A DNA stretch of 64,000 nucleotides from Alphaproteobacteria bacterium. GTDB lineage: Bacteria; Pseudomonadota; Alphaproteobacteria; MPNO01; UBA830. The DNA lies in assembly GCA_965243135.1 (NCBI GenBank), contig OZ251539.1, positions 3,200,001-3,264,000 of the forward strand. Reading direction: 5' to 3'. The notes under the pieces are model-generated. The model made no database searches. It saw only the letters and a list, made by a program, of their open reading frames with translations, and was not told where the DNA came from. Both the position numbers and the translations under genes were made by a program. Shown in pieces: positions 2,308 to 44,577 of this stretch; position 1 is the stretch's first letter; every line of letters starts with the position of its first letter.

Positions 2308-2384
2308 TGGTGGGCCCGGAGGGACTCGAACCCCCGACAACACCGTTATGAGCGGCGCGTTCTGACCAACTGAACTACGGGCCC
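2308..2384 (-). tRNA. tRNA with CAT anticodon, most likely tRNA-Ile2 (lysidine-modified) rather than Met
   Basis: Reverse complement GGGCCCGTAGTTCAGTTGGTCAGAACGCGCCGCTCATAACGGTGTTGTCGGGGGTTCGAGTCCCTCCGGGCCCACCA folds as a cloverleaf with TTCGA T-loop and encoded CCA. The G1-C72 GGGCC acceptor stem matches alphaproteobacterial Ile2. Confidence 0.92.
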
Positions 2385-4311: not shown

Positions 4312-5361
4312 CTAGCCGACGCGGGTCCTGCAGGCTTTCTCGTGCTGACGAACGTGGTCGCCAACGGTGCTCGCCAGTTTTACCGGAACCGCATTGCCGA
4401 TCTGACGCGCCATGGCTCCCATGCTTCCGGAAAATTCGAACGCATCGCTGAATGTTTGCAACCTCGCCGCCTCCCTTACGCTCAGCGCCCTGTTTTGCGT
4501 CGGATGCCCGTAGCGCCCGTTCGAAAGGCTGATGCACCGGGTGGTCAGGGCGGCGGCGGGCCGATCCTTGTGGAGTCTGCCATACACGTCAGTGTGACCC
4601 GCGTAGTTCCTGTGGCAGTCGAGTTTCAGGCGTTCGGGCCAGCTCTCCCGGCCGCTGCCGGGAGGCGTCGCCCTGATGCGCTCCAGATTGATCTGCGACA
4701 GCTTCGCCGCCCGGTGGTTCGTCACCTTCCCGCTGGACTCGCCGGCTTCGAGCGAAGGGAGGTTCCCGATCCATTTCCACACGGTCTCGAATTCGGGATG
4801 GTCGGTACCCGGTCCGTAAGTCTTCTTCGGCACCCCTATCGGGCCGAGCAGGCTCGCCAGCAGCACGAACCGCCGCCGGTACTGAGGCACGCCGTAATCC
4901 TGCGCCCGAAGTATTTTCGAGTCGCGTTTGTATCCCAGCTCGTCGAGCAGGTCGACGAAACGCCCCAAGGGCCCCTTTCTGGAATCGACTTTCTGGAGGC
5001 CGGCGACGTTCTCGACGAAAATGTAGCCGGGCCGGATAGCCTCGACGAAACGGTGGATTTCATCGAGCAGGGTCACGCGCTCGTCTTCGCGGTCCCGGCT
5101 CGTCCGTTGCCGAGTGAACGGCTGGCAGGGAGCGCAAGCCGAAAACAGCAAAGGTCCGTCCGCCGGGATCACGGGAAACAAATCCTCGGGATGAAGGGAT
5201 CGGACGTCCTTCAGGAAAAAATGCGCTTCCGGGAAATTCCCGGTAAACGTGCGTTCGGCGTCGGGGTCGTTGTCGATTCCCGCGAGAATCTTCATGCCCG
5301 CATCCCTCAGCCCGGCGCTCGTACCTCCGCACCCGCAGAAAAAGTCGATTACCCCGATCAC
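4312..5361 (-). CDS. DNA (cytosine-5)-methyltransferase, M.HgiDII-like
   Basis: Motifs I DFFCGCGG, IV CAPCQPF, VI ENV, VIII QYRRR, IX REAARLQTF and X QIGNAVP. The variable region DVYGRL...NGRYGHP resembles HgiDII-type MTases (from recall). Confidence 0.93.
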   Translation of the reverse strand: MIGVIDFFCGCGGTSAGLRDAGMKILAGIDNDPDAERTFTGNFPEAHFFLKDVRSLHPEDLFPVIPADGPLLFSACAPCQPFTRQRTSRDREDERVTLLDEIHRFVEAIRPGYIFVENVAGLQKVDSRKGPLGRFVDLLDELGYKRDSKILRAQDYGVPQYRRRFVLLASLLGPIGVPKKTYGPGTDHPEFETVWKWIGNLPSLEAGESSGKVTNHRAAKLSQINLERIRATPPGSGRESWPERLKLDCHRNYAGHTDVYGRLHKDRPAAALTTRCISLSNGRYGHPTQNRALSVREAARLQTFSDAFEFSGSMGAMARQIGNAVPVKLASTVGDHVRQHEKACRTRVG

Positions 5362-6229
5362 GGACGCCTCGCAGTCTGGAATCCTTCGTCCTCATATTAC
5401 CATGCATTTGCCCAATTTGTAGAATCAGGGTACTCTTCAAGAAGTGGTTTTGGAGCGGACGCGACGCATAGTGCGCTGACATCCTGCAGGCGGACAGGTG
5501 CGACTTGCGCTGGCCGGAATCGCGCCTCTGCGGTCCGGTACGAAGGGAGTGGAAGCGGGCGCTTCGCGGTTGGCGGCCTGTGACGAAGCTGCTTCCATGC
5601 TTCGGTGTAGCCAGAATGCGCCGACTTGGTGAGAACCGGGGCTTCTTTCAGGAACGGCATGCGGCGTTGGCCAAGGTCGTCCGGCGGAAACGAAAACCTG
5701 TCAGGTCAAGCGAACGAAGGGAAATTGTCATGTCCAATCAACCTCGTCGGGTACGCGGGGCAACGATCTGGGTCGGGTTGGAGGAAGGCTGAGGCTGTCG
5801 TTTCAAATTCATCCCCTTCTCCCTGAAAGCAGGAACCGCCTCAGGTGAGAAAGGTTTGAAATTTCGCACGCATCAAGGACCTTTTTCCGATGCACGAACT
5901 CTTGCAGCTACCGTCTCCATCACCCGCAAGAAGACGCCGAAACCTCCGGCAGGAGGAACTCCCTGCCGGTCGCTTCCTGGACAGCCGTAGGTCGTTTGCA
6001 ACCATTGCTACCGCAGACCGTCGGCCCATGCTGCTATGCGAACGTTCCCCCGATAGTTAGGCCAGTCAAGGCTGCAACGGATTGCGACGGGCAGGCTGGA
6101 CGTCGTGTCGACCGTCTCTTCGTATGCAGACTCGGGATGCGAGAGAAGCGTCGCGAGCCGAATGAATCTCGCGGCGCGACCGTCCACGTACGGAGCCGGC
6201 GTGTACAATCTCGATAGGAGGGAGAAGGA

Positions 6230-8368
6230 ATGAGCGAGCCTGCCCGGATCCCGTTCCGCATGCATCCGCGAGTGTTCGACGCTCTGGGCGCCGATCTCGT
6301 CACAAGCGATGTCGTTGCCGTGATCGAACTGGTCAAAAACGCGTATGACGCATTCGCCCGGAAAGTCGATGTAAAATTTCGGAAAAATCAAGATGGTCAC
6401 ACCCGGCTGGACATCGTCGACGACGGGCACGGAATGACGCGCGAGGAGATCGAAGACGTATGGTGCCTTGTGGCGACGCCCCACAAGGATCGGCATCCGG
6501 TAGCGAGAAGAGGCGCCGAAAGGCGCCGCGTTACCGGAGCGAAGGGCTTGGGGCGCCTGTCGGCCGCTCGGCTGGGAGGCCGCCTCAGCATGTTGACCAA
6601 GGCGCGCGGCGAACCCTGCTGGCGGGTTCGCGTCGACTGGTCCCGCGTGTCCGACGGCGCCGACATTGCGGAGAGTTATGTCGTTTGCGAGCGTGCTGAC
6701 GAAGCTTGGCCCAGCAACTCCGGCTCGGGAACCTGGCTCCGCATACGCGATCTTCGCGAAACCTGGGACGAGGCGCGTATTTCCGATCTTGAGCAAAATC
6801 TCGCCCGCCTGATCTCTCCTTTCGCCGAGCGACGCGATTTCCGGATTTTCCTATCCGTCTTTGGCGAATCCAAAGGGGGATCCAAACCGGTCGAGGTGCG
6901 CGCCCCGACTTTCCTCGCGCATCCGAAATACAGATTCCGTGGACAGGTCGACAACAGCGGAAACGTCAGCAGCGAGTACGAATTCAGACCGGTCGCGGCG
7001 GGCGAACCCAGAACCAGGAAACTGGGTCTGACATGGCGGCAGGTGCTGGACGCGGCGCAGGAGCGCATCCCGGAGGGAGACGCTGCCTGCGGTCCGTTCT
7101 CTTTCGAGATAAGGGCATGGGATATCGGCGGACAGGATACGGCCGAAATCGCCGACCGGTTCCGGGTCAATCGGTCCGATGTGCGAAAGGCGATCCGCGT
7201 CCACAAGGGAATATCGGTCTATCGGGACGAAGTGCTGGTCTTGCCCAAGTCAGACAACGCCCGCGACTGGCTCGGACTGGACCTGCGCCGGGTAAGCAGA
7301 GTGGGACAGCGCCTCAGCACGAATCAACTCGTCGGCTACGTTTCCATCACCGCCGACAGCAATCCGGGAATCGGGGATACCAGCGATCGCGAGCGGCTGG
7401 TGTCGACCGCCGAGGCCAGCCAGTTTCAGGAGATATTGAAAGCCGTCGTTGGCCAGATGGAGAACGAGCGGGCCGTCGATCGGTCGGAACCCGATCGGGA
7501 GCGACCGATGAAGAATCTTTTCGAGGGCCTTTCCGCGGACGAACTGCTCGACGAAATCAAGTCGCTTTCGGACGACGGCCTGCCTGCCTCCGAAGCCGTT
7601 CCATGCGTCAGAAATTTCAGGCGCACCCTCAAGACGACCCGGCATTCGATCGAGGAGCGTTTCGCTCATTACAGCCGCCTCTCGACCGTCGGCACGATCG
7701 CCCATATGCTGGTTCACGAAATAAGGGCCCGCACCACGGCCTTCGGAGGCTTTCTCGAATTTGTCAGGGAACGATCCGCGCCCTGCAACGACCCGGAACT
7801 GCAAGAACAGATGCGGCTGGCCGACCACGCCATCGAGGCGCTGGAATCGCTTGCGGACACCTTTCTGCCGCTAGCCAACCGGAATTTCCGGCGACGGAAG
7901 CGACAGTCCGTTCTCGAGGAGCGGATCAGTCATTGCCTCGCCCTTGCCAAGGGAGACATCAGGAAGAGGCGAGTGAAATGCAAGGTCCCGGAAACGGAGA
8001 CGATCGTGGCCGTGGATCCGGGCGAACTCGACGCGATCGTCCTCAATCTGGTCACCAATGCGGCGTACTGGATGGGCGATGTCGCGGGCGAACGCCGCAT
8101 CGATTTCGGGATCAGGCGCCGCCGCGGCGTTCCGCGGGTCGAAGTACGGGTTTCCGACACAGGCCCCGGCATCGAGCCGGAAGACGCCGACAGGGTTTTC
8201 TGGCCCGGAGTTACCGGCAAGCCCGACGGGATCGGAATGGGGCTGACGGTTGCCCGGCAATTGGTTCATTCGTACGACGGACGGATGACGGTCTCGTCGG
8301 CGCCGGGCGCCGGCACCGAGTTCACTTTCGACCTGCCGCTCCGCCGGAAAGGAAGCGCGAATGCTTAA
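6230..8368 (+). CDS. MORC-type GHKL ATPase fused to a C-terminal histidine kinase (copy 1)
   Basis: N-terminal GHKL motifs ELVKNAYDA, DDGHGM, GAKGLGRLS and GT. An S5-like region has GISVYRD...DWLGLDLRR. C-terminal kinase has H-box VHEIR, N-box NLVTNA, DTGPGI and GIGMGL. No transmembrane segments. Confidence 0.88.
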   Translation: MSEPARIPFRMHPRVFDALGADLVTSDVVAVIELVKNAYDAFARKVDVKFRKNQDGHTRLDIVDDGHGMTREEIEDVWCLVATPHKDRHPVARRGAERRRVTGAKGLGRLSAARLGGRLSMLTKARGEPCWRVRVDWSRVSDGADIAESYVVCERADEAWPSNSGSGTWLRIRDLRETWDEARISDLEQNLARLISPFAERRDFRIFLSVFGESKGGSKPVEVRAPTFLAHPKYRFRGQVDNSGNVSSEYEFRPVAAGEPRTRKLGLTWRQVLDAAQERIPEGDAACGPFSFEIRAWDIGGQDTAEIADRFRVNRSDVRKAIRVHKGISVYRDEVLVLPKSDNARDWLGLDLRRVSRVGQRLSTNQLVGYVSITADSNPGIGDTSDRERLVSTAEASQFQEILKAVVGQMENERAVDRSEPDRERPMKNLFEGLSADELLDEIKSLSDDGLPASEAVPCVRNFRRTLKTTRHSIEERFAHYSRLSTVGTIAHMLVHEIRARTTAFGGFLEFVRERSAPCNDPELQEQMRLADHAIEALESLADTFLPLANRNFRRRKRQSVLEERISHCLALAKGDIRKRRVKCKVPETETIVAVDPGELDAIVLNLVTNAAYWMGDVAGERRIDFGIRRRRGVPRVEVRVSDTGPGIEPEDADRVFWPGVTGKPDGIGMGLTVARQLVHSYDGRMTVSSAPGAGTEFTFDLPLRRKGSANA

Positions 8369-9444
8369 GCTATTGTTCATTGACGACCAACCAGACTCTC
8401 TTGGGCCTCTGAAGAACTTTCTCCGCCAGCACCTCAGCTTCGAGGAGAAGACTCGCAACTTCCCCGAGGCCCGGAATTGCGTTGCCGGATATCGCCCGGA
8501 TATCGTGATTCTCGATGTCGTCGACGCCGCCAGCCCCCAAGAATCCCGAAGTCGAGGCCAAAAATACGCTCAACCTTATCTGGAACGGGCATTTCTGTCC
8601 GATAATCGTATATTCCGCCAATCTCGACCTTCTTGAGGGCCATCGAGACCATCCTTTCGTCGTCAGAGTGTAAAGGGGGGCCCGGAATCCACAAAAGGTG
8701 CGGAACGCGATCAGAGAATTCGAACCTCATATCGCGGCGTTGAAGGAGGCAGAGGAAAGCGTCCGGCGGTCGTTCTCGGAAGCGATGCGCGATCTGGCTC
8801 CCGTCGCGCTCGGCGCAACCGGAAAAGTCAATGCCGATACCATCAGACGTGCGGGCCGACGACGGCTCGCCGCGCTTATGGACGAGCCGGCGGCTGATGG
8901 GGAATCGCCAGCCGCGTGGGAGCAATACCTGTTTCCTCCGGTATCGGAGGATTTCCTGCTTGGCGATGTATTGAAAAAGAGAGACGCCGAGGATCCGGCA
9001 GCGTACCGCGTCGTCCTGACTCCTTCCTGCGATATGGTCGCATCCGGGGAACGTGAGCCGAAGGTGCAGGAGATTTTTGTCGCGAAGTGCTGCTCCATGC
9101 AGCAAGCGTTGGAGCAAATCGGCCGCGCCGGAATCGGGCGTCGCAGGATCGAAAGAGACCTACCCAACAACATGCTGGACCCGGGTTACATGAGCCCGGT
9201 AATTCCTTTTCCCCGACTGAACGGCCAGATACCGCAGATGGCCGCCAACCTGCGCCAACTGGAATTGATTCCATTCGATAAATTGAATGACGATTACGAG
9301 CGGAAGGCCTCCATCGACAGCCCCTTTCGCGAGATGGTCGCCTGGGCTTATCTTCAGACTGCGGCCCGTCCCGGTCTCCCGGATCGGGACACGGCCAAAT
9401 GGGCGACGGAAATCGCTGACGAGATGGACACTCATCGAGGCTGA
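8361..9444 (+). pseudogene. Response-regulator receiver-domain protein with unknown C-terminal domain, disrupted
   Basis: REC start LLFIDDQ...PDIVILDV. A +1 frameshift near the C5 run at about 8534-8538 restores KNPEVEAKNTLNLIWNGHFCPIIVYSAN. An in-frame TAA at 8671-8673 follows, then ORF 8698-9444 (VVLTPSCD...ARPGLPD). Confidence 0.8.
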
Positions 9445-15914: not shown

Positions 15915-15915
15915 G

Positions 15916-17802: not shown

Positions 17803-17909
17803 GTCGATCCTCGCATTACGTCGACCGGGGCGAGTATAGGCCGCTTGCACGAGACGTGCCGCGCCGTTCCCTTTGCCCTGCGGCAAACCGCTCCCGTCGA
17901 TCCGGCGGA

Positions 17910-19103: not shown

Positions 19104-19551
19104 CGCCCTTCAGCTCGAGATATCCGTCGCCGGATCGCAGCCATCGGGCCGCCTCTTCTGAAACCTCGTCCCCGCCGCGTTTCAGCCGTCCCTTCAGCGC
19201 GCACTCCCAGACCACGAGAACGCGCCATCCCGCATCCCTGAGGCGCACGAGATTTCCGGCGTCCCTCTCGCGATTCCCCGAAATCTTCTCCTTCCAGAAC
19301 TCGGTCCGCGAAGCCGGCCACTTGAACAGGTGGCAACCATGGCCGTGCCAGAAACAGCCGTGCACGAGAATCACGGCTTTCAGCCCCGGGAATACCAGAT
19401 CCGGCTTGCCGGGCAGTTTCCGGTCGTGCAGCCGGTACCGGAATCCCCTGGCGTGAAGACCGCGGCGCACGACCAGCTCGGGACGCGTGTCCTTTCCCCG
19501 GATGCCCGACATCATGCGGCTCCGCGTCTCCCGGTCAACGACGTCAGCCAA
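19096..19551 (-). CDS. vsr: Very-short-patch repair endonuclease
   Basis: DVVDRETRSRMMSGIRGKDTRPE, LPGKPDLV, HGCFWHGH, FWKEKISGNRERD and VWECAL. The TTG start overlaps the MTase stop. Confidence 0.95.
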   Translation of the reverse strand: MADVVDRETRSRMMSGIRGKDTRPELVVRRGLHARGFRYRLHDRKLPGKPDLVFPGLKAVILVHGCFWHGHGCHLFKWPASRTEFWKEKISGNRERDAGNLVRLRDAGWRVLVVWECALKGRLKRGGDEVSEEAARWLRSGDGYLELKGDA

Positions 19552-20821
19552 AGAGCGGCAACTCCCGCTGGCGGAGATCTCCGCCGGCAATCTCCGGGAC
19601 GCCCAGCCACGGCGCCATGTGGCGGGCTACGGCCTCGACGCAGGGAACGACCACGGCGTTGCCGAACTGCCGGTACGCCTGGGTATCGGAGACGGGGATG
19701 GCGAAGGAGCTTTCGCCGGGTTTCTCGAAACCCATCAGCCGCGCGCATTCGCGCGGCGTCAGCCGCCTCGGGTTGCGCCCGTCCTGCCTCACGAGGATCT
19801 CGGACCCGTCCTTGTAGTAGCGCGCCGAAAGGGTGCGGGTGACGTCCTCGGGGCCGACGAGGCCGTAGCCGAAACCGTTGCCCGCCGCCCGATGCTTCAT
19901 CGCGTACGACTGGAGGTAGTTCCAGAGATGGTCCGACAACGTGTACTTGCCGACGACCGCCGCTCTTTCGCCCTCGGTGAACGGGCTCTCGGCCGGCTCG
20001 CTGCCGTCCTCCGGGTGCAGCACGCTCCGCAGCCGCGGGCCTCCCGCGGGCGCGTCCAGGTCGTCGAAAGTGAAACCGTTCGGTTCCCGGAACCCGGCGA
20101 TGAAGATCCGTTCGCGATGCTGCGGCACCCACGGTTTGGCGTCGAGCACCCTGCAATGGACCTGATAGCCCAGCTCTTCCGTCAGGGTCCGCCGCATGAT
20201 CGCGAAGGTCCGTCCGCGATCGTGGCTGAGGAGGTTCTTGACGTTCTCCAGCAGGAAGGCGCGGGGACGATGCGCCTCGACGATCCGGGCCACGTCGAAG
20301 AAAAGCGTTCCCTGCGCCTCGCAGCGGAAGCCGTGCGGCCGGTTGAGCGCGTTCTTCTTGGACACGCCCGCGATCGAAAACGGCTGGCACGGAAAGCCGG
20401 CGAGCAGGAGGTCGTGTTCCGGGATGTCGCCGACGGAGATCCCGGTGATGTCGCCGGCGATTTCGTGATCGCAATCGTGGTTGGCGGCATAGGTGAACCG
20501 GGCGTACCGGTTCCATTCGCAGGTGTAGACGCAACGGCCGCCGAGCGGTTCGAAGCCGCGCCGCAACCCGCCGATTCCCGCGAACAGATCGACGAAGCGG
20601 AAGGGCGGATCGTTGGCCGCCGGTAGACGAGCGGCGCTTGCCAGCCGGTCCAGGTAATGGATCGCAGCCTTCCGAGGCGGATGCTCGCCGCGATCCCACC
20701 GGTATACCGTGCGGGCGGAGAACCCGATTCGGTCTGCGAGCTGCTCGATCGACAGTCCTGCCCTCTCCCTCAGCAGGGCGAATTCGGACGTAGCGGGATT
20801 TGCGATCATCAAGGCTTCCAT
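19544..20821 (-). CDS. dcm: Dcm/M.EcoRII-like C5 methyltransferase with N-terminal XRE HTH
   Basis: HTH LRERAGLSIEQLADRIGFSARTVYRWDRG, then DLFAGIGG, GFPCQPFS, ENV and QHRER. The target-recognition region GNGFGYGLV...RTLSARYYKDGSEIL matches Dcm (CCWGG predicted). Ends with QFGNAVVVP. Confidence 0.93.
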   Translation of the reverse strand: MEALMIANPATSEFALLRERAGLSIEQLADRIGFSARTVYRWDRGEHPPRKAAIHYLDRLASAARLPAANDPPFRFVDLFAGIGGLRRGFEPLGGRCVYTCEWNRYARFTYAANHDCDHEIAGDITGISVGDIPEHDLLLAGFPCQPFSIAGVSKKNALNRPHGFRCEAQGTLFFDVARIVEAHRPRAFLLENVKNLLSHDRGRTFAIMRRTLTEELGYQVHCRVLDAKPWVPQHRERIFIAGFREPNGFTFDDLDAPAGGPRLRSVLHPEDGSEPAESPFTEGERAAVVGKYTLSDHLWNYLQSYAMKHRAAGNGFGYGLVGPEDVTRTLSARYYKDGSEILVRQDGRNPRRLTPRECARLMGFEKPGESSFAIPVSDTQAYRQFGNAVVVPCVEAVARHMAPWLGVPEIAGGDLRQRELPLFG

Positions 20822-20835
20822 TAGGGGAATAATTT

Positions 20836-20868
20836 TGACATAGTGACAGTCTTTCTCACAGATGTAAA
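20836..20868 (-). promoter_or_regulatory. Putative promoter/operator of the dcm operon
   Basis: Minus strand TTTACA-17 bp-CACTAT. TGACA direct repeats and an imperfect GTGA..TCAC palindrome overlap it. Confidence 0.35.
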
Positions 20869-20970
20869 GAGATGCGATTCGGCCGGACAAAAAAAATTCT
20901 GCGCTTCGGACGCTTCCGCTCGCTGCGACGCCGCGCTTGCGAGGACTGCCGACGCTGCCGCGGCACGGAA

Positions 20971-21734
20971 TCACGCTGCATTGCAGACGTGCGTCTTGTG
21001 GGCGCGGCAGAAATTGTAGTGCACGAAGTAAAGCGACAGCATGTGAAGATGGTTCTCAATCTTCTTGCTGAACGCATAGGCAGCCGGGTGAACCGGCGCA
21101 TCCCCATCCGCATGGTCAGATTGTGACGTTCGACATGGCTGATCGAAAACTGCCTTGGGTCGGGGCACCCTCCATCCGCCACGTCATGGTCCCGGTACAC
21201 GTCCAAGGCGAGCACTCGTGCTCTGCGCCCTTCCCTTGTTCTCGCCATCATGCAGCTTAACTGTCATGGTGTAGCCGATATCCCGCCGAACGCGCCCTCG
21301 ACAGCGGCCAGATACACCTTATGGTCGTCCGTCGTTAGCTGCACCCGACTGCCAGCTACGCCCGCAGATCGTCCATGAGACCGGTTGCCGTCGCCCCCGA
21401 GCGACCTCCGACCCGGCACGATAGGACATCTTGCTATCGGTGCACAGCGCGGTCCAAGTCCATACATCGCCAGCATCGACCGGCGCGGCCTTTGCGTGCG
21501 GGATATTCTTCTCTTTCGCGTACCAGAAAATCCAAATCTCGTCGCACTGAACCTCGCGGGCTTCGACATCGCGCTGCCTCATCGTGACACGCGGCGCAAG
21601 CCTCGCCCGCTTCGACCTCAGCTCGGTGACGGTGTTGATTGACCCCCGCCAGCCGCGTCTTCAAACGCACCGATATCCCCTCGACCGGCATGGTCGGGAT
21701 CATCGTACGCTTTTCCTGAAGGGAGCCTGTTCAT
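20971..21734 (-). mobile_element. Degenerate IS1-family-like DDE transposase (multiple frameshifts)
   Basis: Fragments in shifting frames: MNRLP..KR, INTVT, EAGEACAACHDE, VQCDEIW..YAKEKN, GDVWTWTAL, RVQLTTDDHKVYLAAVEGAFGG, SHVERHNLTMRMGMRRFTRL, AFSKKIENHLHMLSLYFVHYNFCRAHKT. Confidence 0.8.
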
Positions 21735-21736
21735 GC

Positions 21737-21762
21737 CCTCGGCAATAGTCCTATCGCCGAGG
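21737..21762. terminator. Hairpin between the MTase-HNH stop and the transposase start
   Basis: CCTCGGCAATAG-TC-CTATCGCCGAGG, a 12-bp stem with one G-U-compatible mismatch. Confidence 0.45.
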
Positions 21763-21778
21763 ATTATTTCACCGCAAT

Positions 21779-23086
21779 TTAGGCTGCGATATGCAACTTG
21801 GCCCGGAGATATTCCATGCCCCGATGTCCTTTCACGCGGTTGCAGTGCCCGCAAAGCAACTGGAGGTTTTCGAGATGATCCGTACCACCCTTCGCACGGG
21901 GCACTATATGATCGACTTCAAGGTTCTGCGGCGGAAAATGCAGCTGGCAGCCGGTGCAAAACCCGCCCTGTTCACCGTAAAGGTATCGCTTGTTCTTGGC
22001 GTGGTCGTATCGGAGAACGACGCCAATGTCCGTGCGGGAGGGGATGTCCGTCCGATGCGCTCCTTGAAAGAATAGACCGAGCTCGTTCCTCATGCGCTGG
22101 GCAACGAGTTCCGCCGCCTTTTCGCTAATGTCGATGCCTGCCCACTGGCGCTGTAGATTTTGCGCCGCGATACAGGCTGTCGCACAGCCACAAAACGGAT
22201 CCAGCACCATATCGCCTTCGTTCGACGACGCACGAATGATCCTGTCCAACAGCTTTAACGGTTTCTGCGTCGGATAACCAACGCGTTCTTTCTTCAATCG
22301 TCCGACCGGAGAAAACCCAGTCCACCAAGTCTCGGGGACTTTGCCAACCCTCAAGTATTCGTCTCGTTGGTCAGACGTGAGTGCCTCGTGGATCATCGCA
22401 CCAGCCTGGTTGGTGTTCAACTTCTTGTGGGGGACACGGATGTCCTCGCGGTTGAAGGTCCACGTCTTCCCAACCGTGTACCACAACAGCGTATCGTGCT
22501 TCCGGTTAAATTGGCGCATTCCCGGCGAGCCTGGCCCCGTGTAGCACCAGACGATTTCATTCCGAAACGCCTTGCGCCCAAAGATCGCGTCCATGACGAG
22601 CTTGAGGTATGCGCCCATCGTCGGGTCGCAGTGGAGGTAGATCGAGCCGGCAGGCTTCAAGAGCCGCCGCATTTCGAGCAGCCGCGCCGCCATGTAGGCG
22701 AGATAGGACTTGTCGCTATCCGTCATCGCCGCGAGCAGCACGCGGTAGAGCACGGGATGCTTGGCCTCGATCAGGTTGATCCATTCGACGTCCACATCCG
22801 AAAGCGTCCAGATGTCCTTGAACGCCGCGCCCGCCGCCTTGGACCCTATCGGTGCTGCATAGTTGGCTTTGGAGTTGAACGGCGGGTCGAGATAGATCAG
22901 GTCAACCGACGCGCTGTTCATCCCTCGCATGATGGAGATGTTGTCCCCGGTCCAGATTGTCTGGTTGGCCCAGTTCGGATCGCCTACTTGATTCGGGCTG
23001 GCGGGCTGGCGGGCTGGCGGGCTGGCGGGCTGGCGGGCTGGCGGGCTGGCCCTTTTCAGGGTACCCGTTCTGTCGGGGCTTGTCAC
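21779..23086 (-). CDS. Beta-class N6A/N4C DNA methyltransferase fused to a C-terminal HNH domain
   Basis: IYLDPPFNS (motif IV) precedes YPTQKP and LDPFCGCAT (motif I). C-terminal CTGC...EVDHIVPRAKGGTDHLENLQLLCGHCNRVK. The GTG start at 23086 overlaps the upstream TGA. Confidence 0.88.
   Translation of the reverse strand: MTSPDRTGTLKRASPPARQPASPPARQPASPNQVGDPNWANQTIWTGDNISIMRGMNSASVDLIYLDPPFNSKANYAAPIGSKAAGAAFKDIWTLSDVDVEWINLIEAKHPVLYRVLLAAMTDSDKSYLAYMAARLLEMRRLLKPAGSIYLHCDPTMGAYLKLVMDAIFGRKAFRNEIVWCYTGPGSPGMRQFNRKHDTLLWYTVGKTWTFNREDIRVPHKKLNTNQAGAMIHEALTSDQRDEYLRVGKVPETWWTGFSPVGRLKKERVGYPTQKPLKLLDRIIRASSNEGDMVLDPFCGCATACIAAQNLQRQWAGIDISEKAAELVAQRMRNELGLFFQGAHRTDIPSRTDIGVVLRYDHAKNKRYLYGEQGGFCTGCQLHFPPQNLEVDHIVPRAKGGTDHLENLQLLCGHCNRVKGHRGMEYLRAKLHIAA
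22994..23049. repeat. Perfect 8-bp tandem repeat (CGGGCTGG)7, (CCAGCCCG)7 on the coding strand
   Basis: Read directly. It lies within the 5' coding region of the MTase-HNH ORF and encodes ASPPARQP repeats. Confidence 0.95.
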
Positions 23087-23319
23087 TCTTTGTTGCCCCA
23101 CCGCACGGATGCCGCTGCTGCCACGATTTCGCTCTGGCGTTCCGGCTTCAAGGATGTAGCGTGGGCCTTTCCGCCCATGCGGCCGCCTTTTGCCCTGTTC
23201 GAGCAGCAGGGTTTCGCGTCAAGGGTCTTCGCGATTTCGCTTGTGGCGATCTTTCCTACCGTGACGAAGCACCCTACTGGATCGGCAGGGTGTCGCTCTC
23301 CTCGCGATCCTGTCAGCAT
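23083..23319 (-). CDS. Small basic protein of the kind found beside IS1-like transposases (possibly decaying)
   Basis: GERHPADPVG...KIATSEI...AKGGRMGGKAHATSLKPERQSEIVAAAASVRW fits a GGxARAxxLxxERRxEIAxxAAxxRW-type motif. Confidence 0.6.
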   Translation of the reverse strand: MLTGSRGERHPADPVGCFVTVGKIATSEIAKTLDAKPCCSNRAKGGRMGGKAHATSLKPERQSEIVAAAASVRWGNKE

Positions 23320-23401
23320 GGTCAGCCTGTTCTCCTTCCATGAATTTTGTCGTTTCCTCTACCCTCTGTCAATGCATAATATGGAATGCGTCGGGAAACC
23401 G

Positions 23402-23422
23402 ATTTCAAACTGAGACACTACC
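23402..23422 (-). mobile_element. Putative IS1-family terminal inverted repeat
   Basis: Reverse complement GGTAGTGTCTCAGTTTGAAAT fits the GGnnnTG end of IS1-family elements. No partner end was found. Confidence 0.5.
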
Positions 23423-23928
23423 ACATGGCGCGTTGCATTGACGCGCCGGAATATGGCTGCCAATCTTCTCGGAAAGCCGAACCGGCGAGGGGTGCGGTCT
23501 GGTTTGGTCTCTTCACCGCACAGGTGGCGCTGATCGTTTTCAGTGGGGACCTTTGCCAGATCTGGCTGCACGAGCCGGAGACGGGAATCACGGTACCTCG
23601 TCCGCCATGGAGAATGGAACGATGCAATCCGCTCGCGAAACACGGGATGTCCGCCAAAGATGTCCGTAGATACAAGGCTTGGTCTCCTTTTCCTTCCGTA
23701 TACGGTCGGTTGCCGAAGACTGTTGGACGGCTCTGCCGGATACCCGTCGGATGTCCTGCTGTTGTTCGGCAGATCGAGACCGTGCGCCACGCTGTCGGTG
23801 CCGCCACGCACGGCGCGTGGCTCGTCCGGGCAATTCCGCTCAGTAGCGACTTCGCGGAGTTGTTTCTGTTATCCGTGTGCAATCCCGGGTTCTGCCGCGT
23901 CGGTTCCTCGTGATCTGGATGCAGCAAG

Positions 23929-26112
23929 ATGAACGCCCGTGTCGCCGGTGCCCTTTCTGGAGACCAGTCGCTGGATCTGCCGTTTAGGCCGCGCGCGCGC
24001 ATTCTTCAGCTTCTCGGAGACGAACTCATCGGTTCGCCTCGAATTGCCATCTTCGAGTTGGTTAAAAATGCTTACGACGCCGATGCCGAGACGGTATGCG
24101 TGGTCATGAACGATATCGACAATTCCGAGGCGTCGATCATTATCCAGGATGATGGCGAAGGCATGACGCTGAAAACCATCCGCAACATCTGGCTGGTCCC
24201 CGGACACGACCATCGCGCACGGCAGCGTGCAGCCCACGAACGGACCCGTCTGGGCCGCCTGCCGCTTGGGGAAAAAGGGCTTGGCCGGTTCGCGGCCCAC
24301 AAGCTCGGGGATCGTATCGAAGTCGTGACGCGGGCGGCGAATGCGAAGGAATGCGTCGTTTCCATTGACTGGACCAAGCTGCTTCGGCGAACGGACCTTT
24401 CGGACGCGAAGGTTCGAGTGGAAACGCGCGCCCCCGAGATATTTCGGAAAAAGCTGACGGGAACACGGATAACGATTTCCAGACTCCGCGAGAAGAACTG
24501 GACCCGCGGCGAGGTGCGCCGTCTGCAGCGACAGGTCACCTCCATTTCGTCGCCATTTACCGGGGTAACCGACGAATTCACTCCGAAGTTGGAGGTACCC
24601 GGTCATAAAGACTGGCTGACCGACGTGCCGGACATCGGCGCCCTGTTGAAACGGGCGCCATGGGATTACGAATTCCGTTTCGATCAAGGCCTTTTCAACT
24701 GGCGTTACCGTTTCCGGGGTATCCACGGCATCAATCTCCAGCCCCGCGAACTCCCCGAAATCGAGCAACCGCTCCAGGTTCGGTCCGAGCGCGACCTGGA
24801 CCCGTTCGGCCAAGACGACGAGGATGGCCGCCGCCGCCGAAGTTCCGTCATTGCGGATGCATCCTTCGCGGAGGGCATCGGCCCGGTCACGGGCGAGTTT
24901 TTCGTCTTCGACAGGGATCCTGCCGTGCTGGCCCGGTTGGGCGAGCGCCAGCTCATTCGGGAATATCTGGACGAGAACGGCGGCATTCGCGTGTATCGCG
25001 ACGGTATACGGGTCTACAACTATGGAGAACCGGACGACGACTGGCTGGGACTCGACTTGCGGCGAGTCAACCTGCCGACACGCAATCTCAGCAAGAATAT
25101 CGTCGTGGGCGCGGTCAATCTTTCGCTGGAAGACAGCCACGGTCTGATGGAAAAAACGAACCGGGAAGGATTTGTTGAAAATCAGGCATTACGGCAATTG
25201 AAACGAATTGTTATCGGCGCACTGACTCCGCTGGAAGTAGAACGCAAGAAAGACAAGGACAAGATACGGCAGCTTACGGGTCGTGGCAAAAAATCGGAAA
25301 CGCGGCGCATACGACAGCCGCTACAGGAACTCCGTCGCGCAGCTCGCAAGCATAACGTACTTGAGCAACTCGAACCCATAATAGATCGCGTGGAGAAGGA
25401 GTACGACGAATTGCGGAACCTCATGCTGCGCGCAGGACTTTCCGGGATGGGGCTCGCTGTTGTCTTCCACGAAGTTGAACAGGGCGTTCGAGGGCTTTGC
25501 AACCTGATCGAGGCAGGCGGAGAGCACAAGGTCATCCGATCAAGCGCACGCCAACTTGCGCGCGTCTTGAATGGATTCACCGTTCTGTTGCGCAAGGACT
25601 CCAGCCGGTCGAACAGCCTGAAGAAGCTCGTGCGCCGGATCCACGACATCAACAGTGTCCGGTTCCAGAAGCATCGGGTTCGCCTAGACAGCCCAACGCT
25701 GCACGGCGACTCGCCGGACGTCAAGGCGGATTTCTCATTCGGTCTCGCGCTCGGCGCGCTGAACAATCTGCTCGACAACGCCTTCTACTGGCTTCGGGTC
25801 CGCTGGCCGGACGCAGACGACGAGCCGTTGGAGCGGGCGATCTACATGAATACAAGCCTTGATCTGGCGGACGGACCCGCCATCGTCGTCGCCGATACCG
25901 GACCCGGATTCTCCGACGGACCGGAAGAGTTGACAAGCCCGTTCTTCAGTCGCCGTCCGGAGGGAATGGGACTCGGGCTCTATTACGCCAGTCTCGTGAT
26001 GGAACTCGGAGGCGGAAAACTTGCGTTCCCTGACGCGAGTGAAGTAGGTGTACCGGAAGAGTTCGCCGGCGCCGTTCTGGCTCTGGTTTTTCCAAAGGAG
26101 AAGCAGCCGTGA
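23929..26112 (+). CDS. MORC-type GHKL ATPase fused to a histidine kinase (copy 2)
   Basis: ELVKNAYDADA, DDGEGM, GEKGLGRFAAHKLG, GTRITI, GIRVYRDG..DWLGLDLRR and EKTNREG. Kinase H-box VFHEVE, NNLLDNA, DTGPGF, PFF and GMGLGLY. Confidence 0.9.
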   Translation: MNARVAGALSGDQSLDLPFRPRARILQLLGDELIGSPRIAIFELVKNAYDADAETVCVVMNDIDNSEASIIIQDDGEGMTLKTIRNIWLVPGHDHRARQRAAHERTRLGRLPLGEKGLGRFAAHKLGDRIEVVTRAANAKECVVSIDWTKLLRRTDLSDAKVRVETRAPEIFRKKLTGTRITISRLREKNWTRGEVRRLQRQVTSISSPFTGVTDEFTPKLEVPGHKDWLTDVPDIGALLKRAPWDYEFRFDQGLFNWRYRFRGIHGINLQPRELPEIEQPLQVRSERDLDPFGQDDEDGRRRRSSVIADASFAEGIGPVTGEFFVFDRDPAVLARLGERQLIREYLDENGGIRVYRDGIRVYNYGEPDDDWLGLDLRRVNLPTRNLSKNIVVGAVNLSLEDSHGLMEKTNREGFVENQALRQLKRIVIGALTPLEVERKKDKDKIRQLTGRGKKSETRRIRQPLQELRRAARKHNVLEQLEPIIDRVEKEYDELRNLMLRAGLSGMGLAVVFHEVEQGVRGLCNLIEAGGEHKVIRSSARQLARVLNGFTVLLRKDSSRSNSLKKLVRRIHDINSVRFQKHRVRLDSPTLHGDSPDVKADFSFGLALGALNNLLDNAFYWLRVRWPDADDEPLERAIYMNTSLDLADGPAIVVADTGPGFSDGPEELTSPFFSRRPEGMGLGLYYASLVMELGGGKLAFPDASEVGVPEEFAGAVLALVFPKEKQP

Positions 26113-27422
26113 TACCGCCCAGCTACGTAGTCGTGGACAACAGGGAGGAACACCTGAAGGCCATTCTGGAGGTGTTTCAACGGCTCGAAACGCCCTGTCT
26201 GGGAATCCGCTACGATCCTGCGGACGGTATCGGGGAAAGGAAGCTCCGGAACGTTCGGGTCCTGTTTCTGGACTTGCACCTCATCGATGCCTCGGCGACT
26301 ACGGACGAGAGGCAGCACTATACGGCGATCGCTGGCATACTTCGGGATAACGTCAGCCCGGACGGAGGGCCTTTCGTTCTGGTTGTCTGGACCGAGTACG
26401 AGGACAAGGCGGAAGGACTCGGGAATTACCTGAACGAAGACGCCGATCTGGGGTTTGGCGTGCCTCTTGAGATTATCATACTGCCAAAGAGTGAATTCAT
26501 CGATACCAATTCGGGCGAGCCCCTTCCAGGCAATACGCTGCGCGAAAGAGTTCAGGATGCGATTTCCAAGAACCCTCGGCTCAACGCTTTGCTGTCGTGG
26601 GAGGCGGACGTTCAGGCGGCCGCCGGAGAAACGCTCGCGGAGTTGATGAAACTCGTTCCCGACGACAAGCGAAACGCTGGTCAGTACGACGCCGGGCTAG
26701 ACGAGGTGCTGAGCGGCCTCGCAAGTGCAGCCGTTGGAAGAGATCATGTGGACGACGACCCGCGTGGCGCGATCTCTTCCGTTCTCGCCCCGATACTGGC
26801 TGACAGAATTCTCAACCAAGAGAACAAATCCTTAGAGTTATGGAACGAAGCGATTACCCAGCACCGAAACGGCGAAATACCGTCGACGCCGCAAAACAGC
26901 GGCCGGGTCAACCGCTTGCTGCATGTGGCGGTTACTTCGTCGGAGAAAATCGCCCCTAGCGACTGGGGCGCCGTCGTGGAGCTTCCTTCCGAATTGCGGG
27001 ACGACGACGGATTTCAGGACCGCTTCAGCGTGGATAGAGACGGACTTCTCGATAAGGAATTCAAACTCAAAAACGAAGGAGACTACGCCCGGTGCCGCTG
27101 GAGGCTTGTCCGTATCGGAGCTGCGTGCGACTACGCGCAAAATCGTTCCGGTCCGATTCCGTATTTGCTCGGAATTGAAATTCCGCATGACGTCAGACGG
27201 GATCAGCCGTCGGCAGCGGAGTGGAAATCACCCGTTCTCCTTAGCGACTCGAACGACGAACCGTTCAACCTCGCTGTCAACGCGCGTTATTCCCTGAGCG
27301 TTGCGCCGACCGACATTGGGGAATGGAACTCCGTTTACCGACTTCGCGAACAATTGCTTATGCAGCTTATCTCTCATGTCAGCGGCTATCTTTCCCGGCC
27401 CGGCATCATAGCATTGTACTAA
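26109..27422 (+). CDS. Receiver-domain protein with unknown C-terminal domain (copy 2, intact)
   Basis: VVVDN, VLFLDLHL (phosphoacceptor D), VVWT and LPK form the REC motifs. C-terminal IGAACDYAQ...SRPG. GTGA overlap with the kinase. Confidence 0.8.
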   Translation: MIPPSYVVVDNREEHLKAILEVFQRLETPCLGIRYDPADGIGERKLRNVRVLFLDLHLIDASATTDERQHYTAIAGILRDNVSPDGGPFVLVVWTEYEDKAEGLGNYLNEDADLGFGVPLEIIILPKSEFIDTNSGEPLPGNTLRERVQDAISKNPRLNALLSWEADVQAAAGETLAELMKLVPDDKRNAGQYDAGLDEVLSGLASAAVGRDHVDDDPRGAISSVLAPILADRILNQENKSLELWNEAITQHRNGEIPSTPQNSGRVNRLLHVAVTSSEKIAPSDWGAVVELPSELRDDDGFQDRFSVDRDGLLDKEFKLKNEGDYARCRWRLVRIGAACDYAQNRSGPIPYLLGIEIPHDVRRDQPSAAEWKSPVLLSDSNDEPFNLAVNARYSLSVAPTDIGEWNSVYRLREQLLMQLISHVSGYLSRPGIIALY

Positions 27423-44374: not shown

Positions 44375-44577
44375 TGATGCGTCTCCCCGAACTCCGTCCA
44401 TCCGTCCCGAAATTGCGTGAAGGTTGCGAACACCCCTGCTCCAATCGGCGTATCAATGTTTCATACGCTCTTCTTCGCAGTATTGGAGTTAGGAAAGTAG
44501 TGGTCCATGCGATGAACCTTGCGTGCAGGATTCAACGGCTCGCCGCCCGTCCGCGCTTCCTCCAAAAAACTATCGAG

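What the first reader, a model, noticed from the sequence alone, without database searches (positions are those of the whole stretch)
4312..27422. Two MORC-ATPase/histidine-kinase + receiver modules bracket an R-M/defence island: candidate phosphorelay-controlled defence system
Seen: two divergent, co-oriented, soluble proteins (6230-8368, 23929-26112) each join an N-terminal MORC-type GHKL ATPase and S5-like region (shared VYRD..DWLGLDLRR) to a complete His kinase. Each overlaps a receiver gene with no HTH output, and copy 1 is divergent from an HgiDII-like C5 MTase. Established: prokaryotic MORC ATPases associate with R-M operons, and R.HgiDII has a GHKL domain; MORC-kinase fusions have been noted in comparative genomics, but I know of no mechanism. 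Inference: the MORC clamp senses DNA or methylation state and signals to an effector receiver protein, giving a two-component immune system with the MTase marking self.
Basis: partly seen in the sequence, partly recalled or inferred. Interest (0 to 1): 0.82.

Follow-up and report, generated by a model that had tools for sequence, protein, structure and literature searches.

The report
Methylase-linked MORC-kinase and receiver-toxin pairs
Two soluble sensor kinases with a MORC-like DNA-ATPase head, each followed by a receiver protein, are real and belong to a methylase-linked signalling system first predicted in 2021; one copy is dead, and the intact receiver seems to carry a toxin-like output domain.

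Summary
The observation mostly holds. Genes 6230-8368 and 23929-26112 each encode an N-terminal HATPase_c_3 (MORC/MutL-type) ATPase, a conserved middle region, a His-Glu box and a kinase ATPase domain. Each overlaps a receiver-type gene. The first receiver gene (8361-9444) is a pseudogene with one frameshift and one in-frame stop. The idea is not new. Bellieny-Rabelo et al. (2021) described such kinase/receiver pairs linked to C5 methylases and Vsr, and a related system, Ambrosia, blocked phages in a 2025 preprint.

Neither window pair matches that paper's Pfam families (PF19191, PF19192). A third, canonical copy elsewhere in this genome does. So the window holds two uncatalogued sister families.

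- In relatives the kinase always precedes the receiver (20 of 20 and 63 of 63 loci).
- A C5 methylase is adjacent in 18 of 20 and 62 of 66 loci.
- The pair sits where BbrUII/HgiDII-type systems hold their GHKL restriction enzyme.
- The intact receiver has a REC fold plus a C-terminal domain predicted to adopt the CcdB/MazF toxin fold (Z 8.1). I found this in no paper I searched.

My reading is a methylation-linked His-to-Asp relay that switches on a toxin-like effector. The function is untested. It is a new variant of a known kind, of moderate interest.

The parts
4312..5361 (-). C5 cytosine DNA methylase, divergent from kinase 1. It is a close paralogue (76% identity) of the methylase of this genome's canonical PF19191/PF19192 system.
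   Evidence: Pfam DNA_methylase E 8.6e-57. TIGR00675 dcm 153.6 bits. Quick tree. 38% identical to the methylase beside a BbrUII/HgiDII-family enzyme.
6230..8368 (+). Kinase 1 (712 aa). GHKL head at nt 6311-6655, His-Glu box at H496 (nt 7715-7717), kinase ATPase domain at nt 8015-8344. Appears intact.
8361..9444 (+). Receiver gene 1, a pseudogene with a frameshift near 8540 and an in-frame TAA near 8671. Intact homologues are 362-375 aa, with a receiver domain and a conserved C-terminal domain of unknown fold.
10934..17886 (-). DISARM-type genes DrmB (10934-12784) and DrmA (12771-15914), plus a UvrD-like helicase (15916-17886). This is a neighbour, not part of the kinase/receiver pairs.
   Evidence: NCBIfam DrmB_fam 528 bits (cut-off 240). 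DrmA 893 bits (cut-off 950). PADLOC DrmA and DrmB. Pfam UvrD-helicase.
17910..20974 (-). EcoRII-type restriction enzyme (17910-19103), Vsr (19096-19590) and an HTH-fused Dcm-type C5 methylase (19544-20974). This methylase groups with the methylases found beside two relatives of pair 2.
21779..23101 (-). N6/N4 DNA methylase fused to an HNH nuclease, divergent from pair 2.
   Evidence: Pfam N6_N4_Mtase E 1.1e-44 and HNH E 4.1e-13..
23386..23913 (+). 175-aa ORF that ends 16 nt before kinase 2. No family match and no relative in the fetched loci.
23929..26112 (+). Kinase 2 (727 aa). GHKL head at nt 24040-24387, His-Glu box at H514 (nt 25468-25470), kinase ATPase domain at nt 25759-26031. Intact.
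26109..27422 (+). Receiver-effector 2 (437 aa). REC-fold domain at about nt 26109-26600, with D10, D55 (nt 26271-26273), T95 and K127. A helical linker follows. The C-terminal domain of predicted CcdB/MazF fold lies at about nt 26952-27404.

Best explanation
Each pair is a self-contained two-gene cassette: a soluble MORC/MutL-type GHKL ATPase fused to a histidine kinase, followed by a receiver protein with a non-DNA-binding output domain. In nature the cassette travels with a C5 cytosine methylase and usually Vsr.

Shown here:
- The domain make-up of the four genes.
- Invariant ATPase, His-Glu, N, G1 and G2 motifs in the kinases, and Asp, Thr and Lys in the receivers.
- Strict kinase-receiver adjacency, and tight linkage to a C5 methylase.
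- A CcdB/MazF-type predicted fold for the output domain of receiver 2.

Inferred:
- The GHKL head with the middle region acts as an ATP-driven clamp on DNA, as in MutL and MORC proteins. It reports DNA that lacks the partner methylase's mark.
- This drives autophosphorylation of the conserved His (H496 or H514) and transfer to the receiver Asp (D55 in receiver 2).
- Phosphorylation switches on, or releases, the output domain. In the pair-2 family that domain would stop growth or kill, like a MazF-type RNase or a CcdB-type gyrase poison.
- The pair therefore plays the restriction part of a restriction-modification system without an obvious DNA nuclease.

In this genome pair 1 is a decayed remnant: the receiver is broken and there is no downstream methylase or Vsr. 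Pair 2 looks intact but lacks its usual methylase. It sits 3 kb from a complete EcoRII-Vsr-Dcm unit, whose methylation it may share.
For: - Domains.
- All catalytic motifs are invariant in 62 of 62 kinases of three families.
- Receiver 2: D10, D55 and K127 are invariant and T95 nearly invariant in 34 sequences. REC fold Z 9.6, rmsd 2.9, 114 residues aligned.
- The receiver-1 family profile matches solved receiver domains, E 1.1e-6.
- A kinase lies directly upstream of the receiver in 20 of 20 genome loci. The same holds in 63 of 63 metagenome loci with at least 300 nt upstream.
- A C5 methylase lies within 2 kb in 18 of 20 pair-2-type loci and somewhere in 19 of 20. Vsr is present in 15 of 20.
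- A co-oriented C5 methylase follows the receiver in 62 of 66 pair-1-type loci. Vsr is present in 21 of 23 loci with enough flank.
- A true BbrUII/HgiDII restriction enzyme with the same kind of GHKL head lies beside a C5 methylase and Vsr.
- Output domain model: pLDDT 90, pTM 0.86. The best 15 of 48,161 chains are all MazF, CcdB, Kid, ToxN, AbiQ or CptN toxins, Z 8.1 to 4.4. The next chain scores 3.7. Foldseek lists the same toxins first, but weakly.
- The one pair without its own methylase and Vsr (pair 1) is also the one whose receiver gene is broken. That fits a harmful effector which needs a protecting methylase.
- The cassette is found on conjugative plasmids (5 of 7 plasmid records) and across several phyla at 52-70% kinase identity. 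Defence cassettes typically spread this way.
Against: - No experiment bears on these two families.
- Pair 2 is intact although its usual methylase type is absent from the whole genome (best match 33% identity over the N-terminal half). A plain restriction logic would make that lethal unless another methylase protects.
- In one genome locus (L014), one plasmid (R. gallicum) and this window, the pair sits by a complete methylase-Vsr-restriction enzyme unit. It is therefore not always the only restriction part.
- Pair-2-type kinases that are 59-70% identical to each other sit with methylases of at least four very different clades (quick tree only). It is unclear how specificity would be matched.
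- The toxin fold is predicted only. Foldseek's best E is 0.026. No Pfam toxin family matches at E up to 10. Catalytic residues were not compared.
- The output domains of the three receiver families could not be aligned to each other. The toxin fold may therefore hold for the pair-2 family alone.
- The only tested relative, Ambrosia, is read by its authors as a transcriptional switch and showed no host toxicity (section 8 of the preprint).
Confidence: 0.5

Rival explanations
1. The pairs are regulators, not effectors. The kinase senses infection or DNA state, and the phosphorylated receiver controls expression or activity of neighbouring restriction-modification genes. The 2021 paper speculated this, and the authors of Ambrosia propose it.
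For: The Discussion of PMC8011034 (read) proposes signalling that controls R-M systems. In Ambrosia the receiver carries a winged HTH, its Asp is required, and reporters replacing the methylase or HNH gene rise on infection (bioRxiv 10.1101/2025.09.30.679545, section 8 read). In this window, L014 and the R. gallicum plasmid, the pair lies beside a complete R-M unit.
Against: No HTH or other DNA-binding family was found in either receiver. The output domain of receiver 2 matches toxins and not transcription factors. In most loci I recognised no separate restriction enzyme to regulate beside the methylase and Vsr. I did not annotate every neighbour.
Confidence: 0.17
2. The cassette is an addiction or guard module. 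The receiver-toxin is held off while the partner methylase keeps the chromosome marked. It fires on the host itself when methylation lapses, for example on loss of the mobile element or when a phage inhibits the methylase. This stabilises the element rather than attacking incoming DNA.
For: Toxin-type predicted fold. Location on conjugative plasmids and next to an integrase. Tight coupling with the methylase. Decay of the receiver where the methylase is missing.
Against: Pair 2 is intact here without its usual methylase. No antitoxin-like partner is evident. This reading differs from the main one only in its target, and sequence cannot settle that.
Confidence: 0.15
3. The GHKL head works as a MutL-like helper of Vsr in repairing T:G mismatches left by 5-methylcytosine deamination. 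The kinase/receiver part couples repair load to a cellular response. On this reading it is a repair accessory and not an immune system.
For: Vsr is present in 15 of 20 and 21 of 23 loci. The head is of the MutL/MORC type. That E. coli MutL stimulates Vsr is recalled, not checked here.
Against: Vsr accompanies C5 methylases in general, so its presence is explained without the kinase. Vsr is missing in 5 of 20 loci that keep the pair. A toxin-fold output and spread on plasmids fit repair poorly.
Confidence: 0.05

Closest known systems
HEF_HK (PF19191) / Response_reg_2 (PF19192) two-component-like pairs linked to type II R-M systems and paraMORC ATPases (Bellieny-Rabelo, Pretorius and Moleleki 2021, PMC8011034; Results and Discussion read)
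   Same: Soluble kinase with HATPase_c_3, a His-Glu helix pair and HATPase_c. An adjacent receiver-like protein with no known output. Linkage to C5 methylases and Vsr. Kinase 2 aligns with this genome's canonical HEF_HK kinase in three segments, including the His box (E 3e-17, 9e-14, 3e-10).
   Different: Neither window kinase matches PF19191 and neither receiver matches PF19192, even at E 10. PF19192 matches 0 of 34 members of each receiver family. The window proteins are shorter (712-727 vs 991 aa, and 363-437 vs 573 aa). The receivers are not alignable to the canonical one. The paper reports no fold for the output domain. Its supplementary tables could not be seen, so I cannot say whether its wider orthologue group held members of these two families.
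Ambrosia anti-phage system of Pseudomonas aeruginosa (AbrR XRE, AbrA N6 methylase, AbrB HATPase kinase, AbrC receiver-wHTH, AbrD HNH; bioRxiv 10.1101/2025.09.30.679545, section 8 read)
   Same: A methylase plus a kinase/receiver pair in one defence cluster, with the receiver Asp required for defence. The window also has an XRE-type HTH (fused to Dcm), an N6/N4 methylase and an HNH (fused together) right beside pair 2.
   Different: The Ambrosia receiver has a winged HTH and is read as a transcription switch. Receiver 2 has a toxin-fold output and no HTH. The conserved partner of the window's families is a C5 methylase with Vsr, not an N6 methylase with HNH.
BbrUII/HgiDII-family type II restriction enzymes (NCBIfam NF050001) and paraMORC families (Iyer, Abhiman and Aravind 2008, PMC2292703; passages read)
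   Same: The same kind of N-terminal GHKL head: window kinases match positions 7-198 of NF050001 at E 1.8e-23 and 4.7e-26. The same neighbours: a C5 methylase and Vsr. The methylases are related (38% identity).
   Different: The similarity stops after about 200 residues. Scores are 83-92 bits against a cut-off of 550, and BLASTP aligns only aa 21-175. The restriction enzyme is a single chain. Here a kinase and a separate receiver-effector take the place of its C-terminal part.
MazF/PemK/Kid and CcdB toxins of toxin-antitoxin systems, and the ToxN/AbiQ/CptN RNases
   Same: Predicted fold of the C-terminal domain of receiver 2: Z 8.1, rmsd 3.8, 112 of 115 residues of S. aureus MazF aligned; Z 7.6, rmsd 3.0, 94 of 95 residues of CcdB aligned.
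   Different: No sequence similarity (and 6-15% identity). The domain is fused to a receiver domain instead of being paired with an antitoxin. Active-site residues were not compared, and no activity is known.
Detocs (defensive two-component system with a receiver-fused enzymatic effector).
   Same: The concept: a kinase senses infection and phosphotransfer activates a receiver-fused non-transcriptional effector.
   Different: As recalled, Detocs has a different sensor, a buffer receiver protein and a nucleosidase effector, and no methylase. No PADLOC model other than the head region of a type II restriction enzyme matched the window proteins.
VcSduA, a Shedu-type nuclease with a GHKL head formerly called paraMORC3 (PMC12137116; passages read)
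   Same: A GHKL ATPase head controlling a C-terminal effector in phage defence. Both ATPase and effector residues are required.
   Different: It is a single protein with a PD-(D/E)xK nuclease. It has no kinase, no receiver and no methylase linkage.

Membership tests
HEF_HK / Response_reg_2 system (Pfam PF19191 + PF19192) | Kinase carries an N-terminal HATPase_c_3 and a C-terminal HATPase_c | tested here: met
   both domains are present in both kinases.
HEF_HK / Response_reg_2 system (Pfam PF19191 + PF19192) | His-box region matches PF19191 (HEF_HK) | tested here: not met
   No match at E up to 10 in either kinase. No match inside the window in the whole-genome search. Positive control: the kinase at 4.16 Mb scores 90.5 bits.
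HEF_HK / Response_reg_2 system (Pfam PF19191 + PF19192) | Receiver matches PF19192 (Response_reg_2) | tested here: not met
   No match at E up to 10. The only genome match is at 4.16 Mb. 0 of 34 members match in each receiver family at E up to 1.
HEF_HK / Response_reg_2 system (Pfam PF19191 + PF19192) | Kinase and receiver genes adjacent; C5 methylase and Vsr in the neighbourhood | tested here: met
   Adjacency in 20 of 20 and 63 of 63 loci. Methylase in 18 of 20 (within 2 kb) and 62 of 66 loci. Vsr in 15 of 20 and 21 of 23 loci. In the window itself, pair 1 has only a divergent methylase of another clade and pair 2 has none adjacent.
Classical two-component system | Kinase H box (His followed by an acidic residue) and N, G1, G2 boxes | tested here: met
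   H496/H514-Glu, the N-box Asn residues, DxGxG and GxGxG are invariant in 62 of 62 kinases. Pfam HisKA models do not match.
Classical two-component system | Receiver with acidic pocket, phospho-acceptor Asp, Thr/Ser and Lys on a (beta-alpha)5 fold | tested here: met
   Receiver 2: D10, D55 and K127 invariant, T95 nearly so; fold Z 9.6. Receiver-1 family: D9, D53 and K106 invariant. PF00072 matches 26 of 34 members but below Pfam's cut-off. PDB receiver domains match at E 1.1e-6. The window's own receiver 1 is broken.
Classical two-component system | His-to-Asp phosphotransfer | not testable with these tools
   Needs biochemistry.
MORC / paraMORC GHKL ATPases (Iyer et al. 2008) | GHKL motifs I-III intact | tested here: met
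   E..KN..D, DxGxGM and GxKGxG are invariant in 62 of 62 kinases.
MORC / paraMORC GHKL ATPases (Iyer et al. 2008) | S5-fold domain after the GHKL domain | not tested
Only the conserved YRD..DW..RR block was seen.
BbrUII/HgiDII restriction enzyme family (NF050001) | Full-length match above 550 bits | tested here: not met
   82.9 and 91.5 bits, covering profile positions 7-198 of 659 only.
MazF/PemK and CcdB toxin superfamily | Shared fold covering the whole toxin | tested here: met
   Z 8.1 to 6.2 for 12 toxin chains, with 92-115 residues aligned. The next unrelated chain scores Z 3.7. This rests on a predicted model, pLDDT 90.
MazF/PemK and CcdB toxin superfamily | Sequence-family membership and active-site residues | tested here: inconclusive
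   No Pfam match at E up to 10. Residue-level superposition was not available.
Ambrosia | Five genes: XRE regulator, N6 methylase, HATPase kinase, receiver with wHTH, HNH nuclease | tested here: inconclusive
   All five domain types occur within 19.5-27.4 kb of the window. However the receiver has no wHTH, and the methylase-HNH fusion is not a conserved partner in relatives.
DISARM (genes in the middle of the island) | DrmA and DrmB present, with a methylase | tested here: inconclusive
   DrmB is over its cut-off and DrmA just under (893 vs 950 bits). No DrmC or DrmE was seen. A Dcm methylase lies in the same gene string.

The most novel reading that the evidence does not exclude
Restriction-modification without a restriction nuclease. 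A MutL/MORC-like clamp reads the C5-methylation state of DNA. It passes the verdict by His-to-Asp phosphotransfer to a receiver-fused CcdB/MazF-fold toxin, so that unmarked DNA triggers growth arrest or death rather than DNA cleavage. The three receiver families of this genome (PF19192-type, pair-1 type, pair-2 type) would then be divergent versions of one phospho-switched toxin. That would give the system described in 2021 its missing effector.
Probability: 0.25. Interest if true: 0.75.

Novelty: new variant of a known kind. Interest (0 to 1): 0.45.

Why it matters
If the reading is right, these cassettes join an epigenetic self-mark to two-component signalling and a toxin-type effector. That combination is not among the established modes of bacterial immunity. 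The families are large. The output domain of receiver 2 alone matches 668 clusters at 50% identity. They are spread across phyla and on conjugative plasmids, yet RefSeq names the genes only 'ATP-binding protein' and 'hypothetical protein', and PADLOC does not detect them. The window shows that the published Pfam models miss at least two sister families, and it gives a testable guess for the effector. It also offers a natural comparison within one genome: a canonical copy, an intact orphan copy and a decayed copy.

Tried and rejected
- Homodimer prediction for the C-terminal domain of receiver 2 gave no verdict (score 0.11, mark 0.42). It counts neither way.
- Profile comparisons between the three receiver families found nothing significant. 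hhalign gave at best probability 21%, E 0.001, and only over the receiver region. hmmsearch gave nothing below E 0.01 in small sets. The best local hhalign hits did fall on a shared 'strand + (S/A)-C-D' motif in co-linear order. I treat that as a lead only.
- ESM Atlas look-ups gave only own-family clusters and a weak lead (0.81-0.82) to clusters where 10-18% of members carry PF19192.
- The PDB sequence search with the receiver-2 family profile found nothing below E 0.08.
- The 175-aa ORF before kinase 2, the 140-aa ORF after receiver 2 and the ORFs after receiver 1 have no family match and no relative in the fetched loci. No methylase or Vsr remnant was found near either pair at E up to 0.01.
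- No RNA holder was listed among the sequencing runs, so nothing can be said about expression.
- One record labelled as a phage held a 30% identical relative. It is a 5.5-kb unannotated metagenome contig, and I draw nothing from it.
- The careful maximum-likelihood tree of the methylases did not finish in the time allowed. Only the quick tree is reported.
- Chance co-location of two ordinary two-component systems in an island is rejected by the adjacency and methylase counts.

Full report
**What is in the window.** Third-position GC sets apart an island from about 4.0 to 27.9 kb. GC3 there is 0.57-0.82, against 0.83-0.90 in the genes to its right. The flanks hold HipA, tRNA-Met and UbiD on the left, and a TRAP transporter, RpoD and DnaG on the right.

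The island holds, in order:
- a C5 methylase, 4312-5361(-)
- kinase 1, 6230-8368(+)
- receiver gene 1, 8361-9444(+)
- one uninterrupted minus-strand string: HTH-Dcm (19544-20974), Vsr (19096-19590), EcoRII (17910-19103), a UvrD-like helicase (15916-17886), DrmA (12771-15914) and DrmB (10934-12784)
- an N6/N4 methylase-HNH fusion, 21779-23101(-)
- a 175-aa ORF
- kinase 2, 23929-26112(+)
- receiver 2, 26109-27422(+)

These assignments rest.

**Checking the observation.** Both kinases carry an N-terminal HATPase_c_3 and a C-terminal HATPase_c. Their heads are closest to the head of BbrUII/HgiDII restriction enzymes (E 1.8e-23 and 4.7e-26, far below that family's cut-off). They are 30% identical over 447 residues.

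I aligned 62 kinases: the two from the window, the canonical one from this genome, 19 relatives of kinase 2 and 40 of kinase 1. These features are invariant:
- GHKL motifs I-III
- a His-Glu pair (H496 / H514)
- the N, G1 and G2 boxes

No stretch looks membrane-spanning. The receiver genes overlap the kinase genes by 8 and 4 nt.

Receiver gene 1 is broken, however. Intact homologues of 362-363 aa align to two frames, with a shift near 8540. They meet a TAA near 8671 where they have Gln. Contigs of three runs from one study cover these places without a single difference; one of those runs may be the source of the assembly. The lesions are therefore not a slip of this assembly alone.

Receiver 2 has no Pfam match at all. 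Its family of at least 424 proteins keeps D10, D55 and K127 invariant and T95 nearly so. Its predicted N-terminal domain superposes on receiver domains (Z 9.6, rmsd 2.9, 114 residues, and Foldseek rows).

**It is a known kind.** A full-text search found Bellieny-Rabelo et al. 2021 (PMC8011034; Results and Discussion read). That paper describes soluble kinases with HATPase_c_3, a new His-box domain (HEF_HK, PF19191) and HATPase_c. They lie next to receiver-like proteins (Response_reg_2, PF19192) with 91.6% linkage, in regions rich in C5 methylases, Vsr and type II R-M genes. The authors relate them to paraMORCs (Iyer et al. 2008, PMC2292703; passages read).

A 2025 preprint validates Ambrosia as an anti-phage system. 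Ambrosia comprises an XRE regulator, an N6 methylase, a HATPase kinase, a receiver with a wHTH, and an HNH nuclease. Its receiver Asp is required.

Searches for HEF_HK / Response_reg_2, paraMORC and a five-term search found no experimental work on the C5-methylase-linked pairs themselves. Earlier notes of this scan reached the same closest-known family for similar cassettes in other genomes.

**But not the catalogued families.** Neither window kinase matches PF19191 and neither receiver matches PF19192, even at E 10. The same genome holds a canonical operon at about 4.16 Mb that does match:
- a C5 methylase of 361 aa
- a kinase of 991 aa, HEF_HK 90.5 bits
- a receiver of 573 aa, Response_reg_2 117.7 bits

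Kinase 2 aligns with that canonical kinase in the head, the middle block and the His-box/ATPase region (E 3e-17, 9e-14, 3e-10), so the kinases are homologous. The three receivers are not alignable by BLASTP, HMM or profile-profile comparison. PF19192 matches 0 of 34 members of either window family. The receiver-1 family is a recognisable receiver by sequence: PF00072 matches 26 of 34 members below its cut-off, and PDB receivers match at E 1.1e-6. The window therefore adds two sister families to the published one.

**Neighbourhoods of pair-2 relatives.** I examined 20 loci from named genomes: Gammaproteobacteria, Sphingomonas, Bradyrhizobium, Comamonas, Propionivibrio, Chlorobiaceae and three acidobacterial lineages.
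- The kinase lies directly upstream of the receiver in 20 of 20 loci, at 52-70% identity to kinase 2.
- A C5 methylase lies in 19 of 20 loci and within 2 kb of the pair in 18. One exception ends 270 nt after the receiver.
- Vsr is present in 15 of 20.

**Neighbourhoods of pair-1 relatives.** I kept the best 80 of 176 confirmed metagenome loci.
- A kinase frame ends at the receiver start in 63 of 63 loci with at least 300 nt upstream.
- A co-oriented C5 methylase starts right after the receiver in 62 of 66 loci with at least 600 nt downstream. Two of the four exceptions have the methylase upstream instead.
- Vsr is present in 21 of 23 loci with enough flank.

**Other contexts.** Pfam confirms the gene identities in examples. 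On plasmids, 5 of 7 records that carry a receiver-2 relative are typed conjugative. A Burkholderia glumae plasmid has kinase, receiver, Vsr and methylase in a row next to an integrase. A true BbrUII/HgiDII enzyme (719 bits) sits beside a C5 methylase and Vsr, and that methylase is 38% identical to the window's 4312-5361 methylase. The kinase/receiver pair thus occupies the place that a GHKL-headed restriction enzyme occupies in a related R-M operon.

**The effector.** I folded residues 256-437 of receiver 2 alone, with 18 orthologous segments. The model has pLDDT 90.2 and pTM 0.86. I compared it against 48,161 representative chains.
- The 15 best are all toxins of the MazF/PemK/Kid, CcdB or ToxN/AbiQ/CptN kind.
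- Z runs from 8.1 (S. aureus MazF, rmsd 3.8, 112 of 115 residues) through 7.6 (CcdB, rmsd 3.0, 94 of 95) to 4.4.
- The next chain scores 3.7.

Foldseek ranks the same toxins first, but with weak E-values (best 0.026). There is no sequence-level match. The family keeps a set of invariant polar residues (N, H, C-D, S, several R, E), as an enzyme would. A profile of this domain finds 668 clusters at 50% identity. The 150 best listed are proteins of the same receiver-plus-domain build, or fragments. I found no mention of this fold in the papers read. The earlier scan notes report HEPN RNase outputs in other variants (not checked here), which would be in keeping.

**What this genome's copies look like.** In a quick tree of 80 methylases (the careful search did not finish):
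- The 58 methylases that follow pair-1-type receivers form one group (support 96).
- The window's 4312-5361 methylase lies outside that group. It is 76% identical to the methylase of the canonical 4.16-Mb operon.
- Pair 1 therefore has a broken receiver, no downstream methylase and no Vsr, and its neighbour is a methylase of another lineage. It is a remnant.

Pair 2 looks intact and is closest (70%) to kinases whose partner is a convergent methylase-Vsr pair of one clade. No such methylase lies after receiver 2 or anywhere in the genome (best 33% identity over half the length).

The window's Dcm, 3 kb away, groups with the methylases that accompany pair-2 relatives in L014 and L018 (support 99; 68% identity to L018's). 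In L014 the string is methylase, Vsr, an MvaI/BcnI-type enzyme, kinase and receiver. A Rhizobium gallicum plasmid has kinase and receiver followed by dcm, vsr and a type II enzyme. So the pair can ride with a complete R-M unit, as it does here.

**Mechanism.** My best reading has confidence about 0.5. The GHKL head and middle region act as an ATP-driven DNA clamp that reports DNA lacking the partner's C5 mark. This drives His autophosphorylation and transfer to the receiver Asp. That in turn activates a toxin-type output, giving a restriction-like or abortive response.
- Shown: the domains, the invariant residues, the gene linkage and the predicted folds.
- Inferred: DNA binding, the signal, the direction of control and the activity of the output.
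- Against a plain R-M logic: the intact orphan state of pair 2, the diversity of partner methylases for rather similar kinases, and the co-occurrence with complete R-M units.

The rivals are a transcription-type regulator of R-M genes (the reading given for Ambrosia), an addiction or guard module aimed at the host itself, and a MutL-like helper of Vsr repair.

**Verdict.** Three things are new here:
- two uncatalogued sister families
- a very tight four-gene operon for one of them
- a predicted CcdB/MazF-fold effector for the other

Interest is moderate.

Noticed in passing
window 10934-20974 (- strand): Six genes run without gaps on the minus strand: HTH-Dcm, Vsr, EcoRII, a UvrD-like helicase, DrmA and DrmB. 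DrmB passes its NCBIfam cut-off and DrmA falls just short (893 vs 950 bits). No DrmC or DrmE was seen. This may be a DISARM variant that uses a Dcm/EcoRII unit and a UvrD-type helicase.
   Followed up: partly
G000:C1 about 4,160,400-4,166,100 (L030 8404-14113, - strand): A third, canonical methylase / HEF_HK kinase (991 aa) / Response_reg_2 receiver (573 aa) operon lies in the same genome. Its methylase is 76% identical to the window's 4312-5361 methylase.
   Followed up: partly
L002, L015, L016, L017, L020 (and partly L007): In 5-6 of the 20 pair-2-type loci the kinase-receiver-methylase-Vsr cassette is embedded in a larger conserved set. A DUF499 protein and a DUF7680 protein lie directly upstream. 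An AAA_15/AAA_21 ATPase, a DUF1156 protein and an SNF2/PLD helicase lie downstream. This looks like a bigger defence system hosting the cassette.
   Followed up: partly
window 21779-23101 (-): A single protein joins an N6/N4 DNA methylase to a C-terminal HNH nuclease. It lies between the Dcm unit and pair 2. With the XRE-type HTH on Dcm, all five Ambrosia domain types lie within 8 kb. The fusion is not a conserved partner of the pair in relatives.
   Followed up: partly
window 43043-45903 (-): A low-GC patch (GC 0.49-0.56, GC3 0.45-0.56) in the high-GC flank holds an AAA_15/AAA_21 ATPase (44578-45903) and a 452-aa protein with no family match. It may be a small separate acquired two-gene defence-like unit.
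   Followed up: no
window 276-1436 (+) and 2308-2384 (-): A HipA-type kinase toxin gene and a tRNA-Met gene lie just left of the island. No integrase was seen in the island itself.
   Followed up: no
window 31084-31173 (+): ARAGORN calls a 90-nt tRNA-Arg(CCG) inside the coding region of a substrate-binding protein gene (29855-31408, -). It is probably a false call.
   Followed up: no
whole genome: At least eight places in the genome match a C5 methylase query. One of them has an internal TGA. That is an unusually rich set of cytosine methylases for one organism.
   Followed up: no
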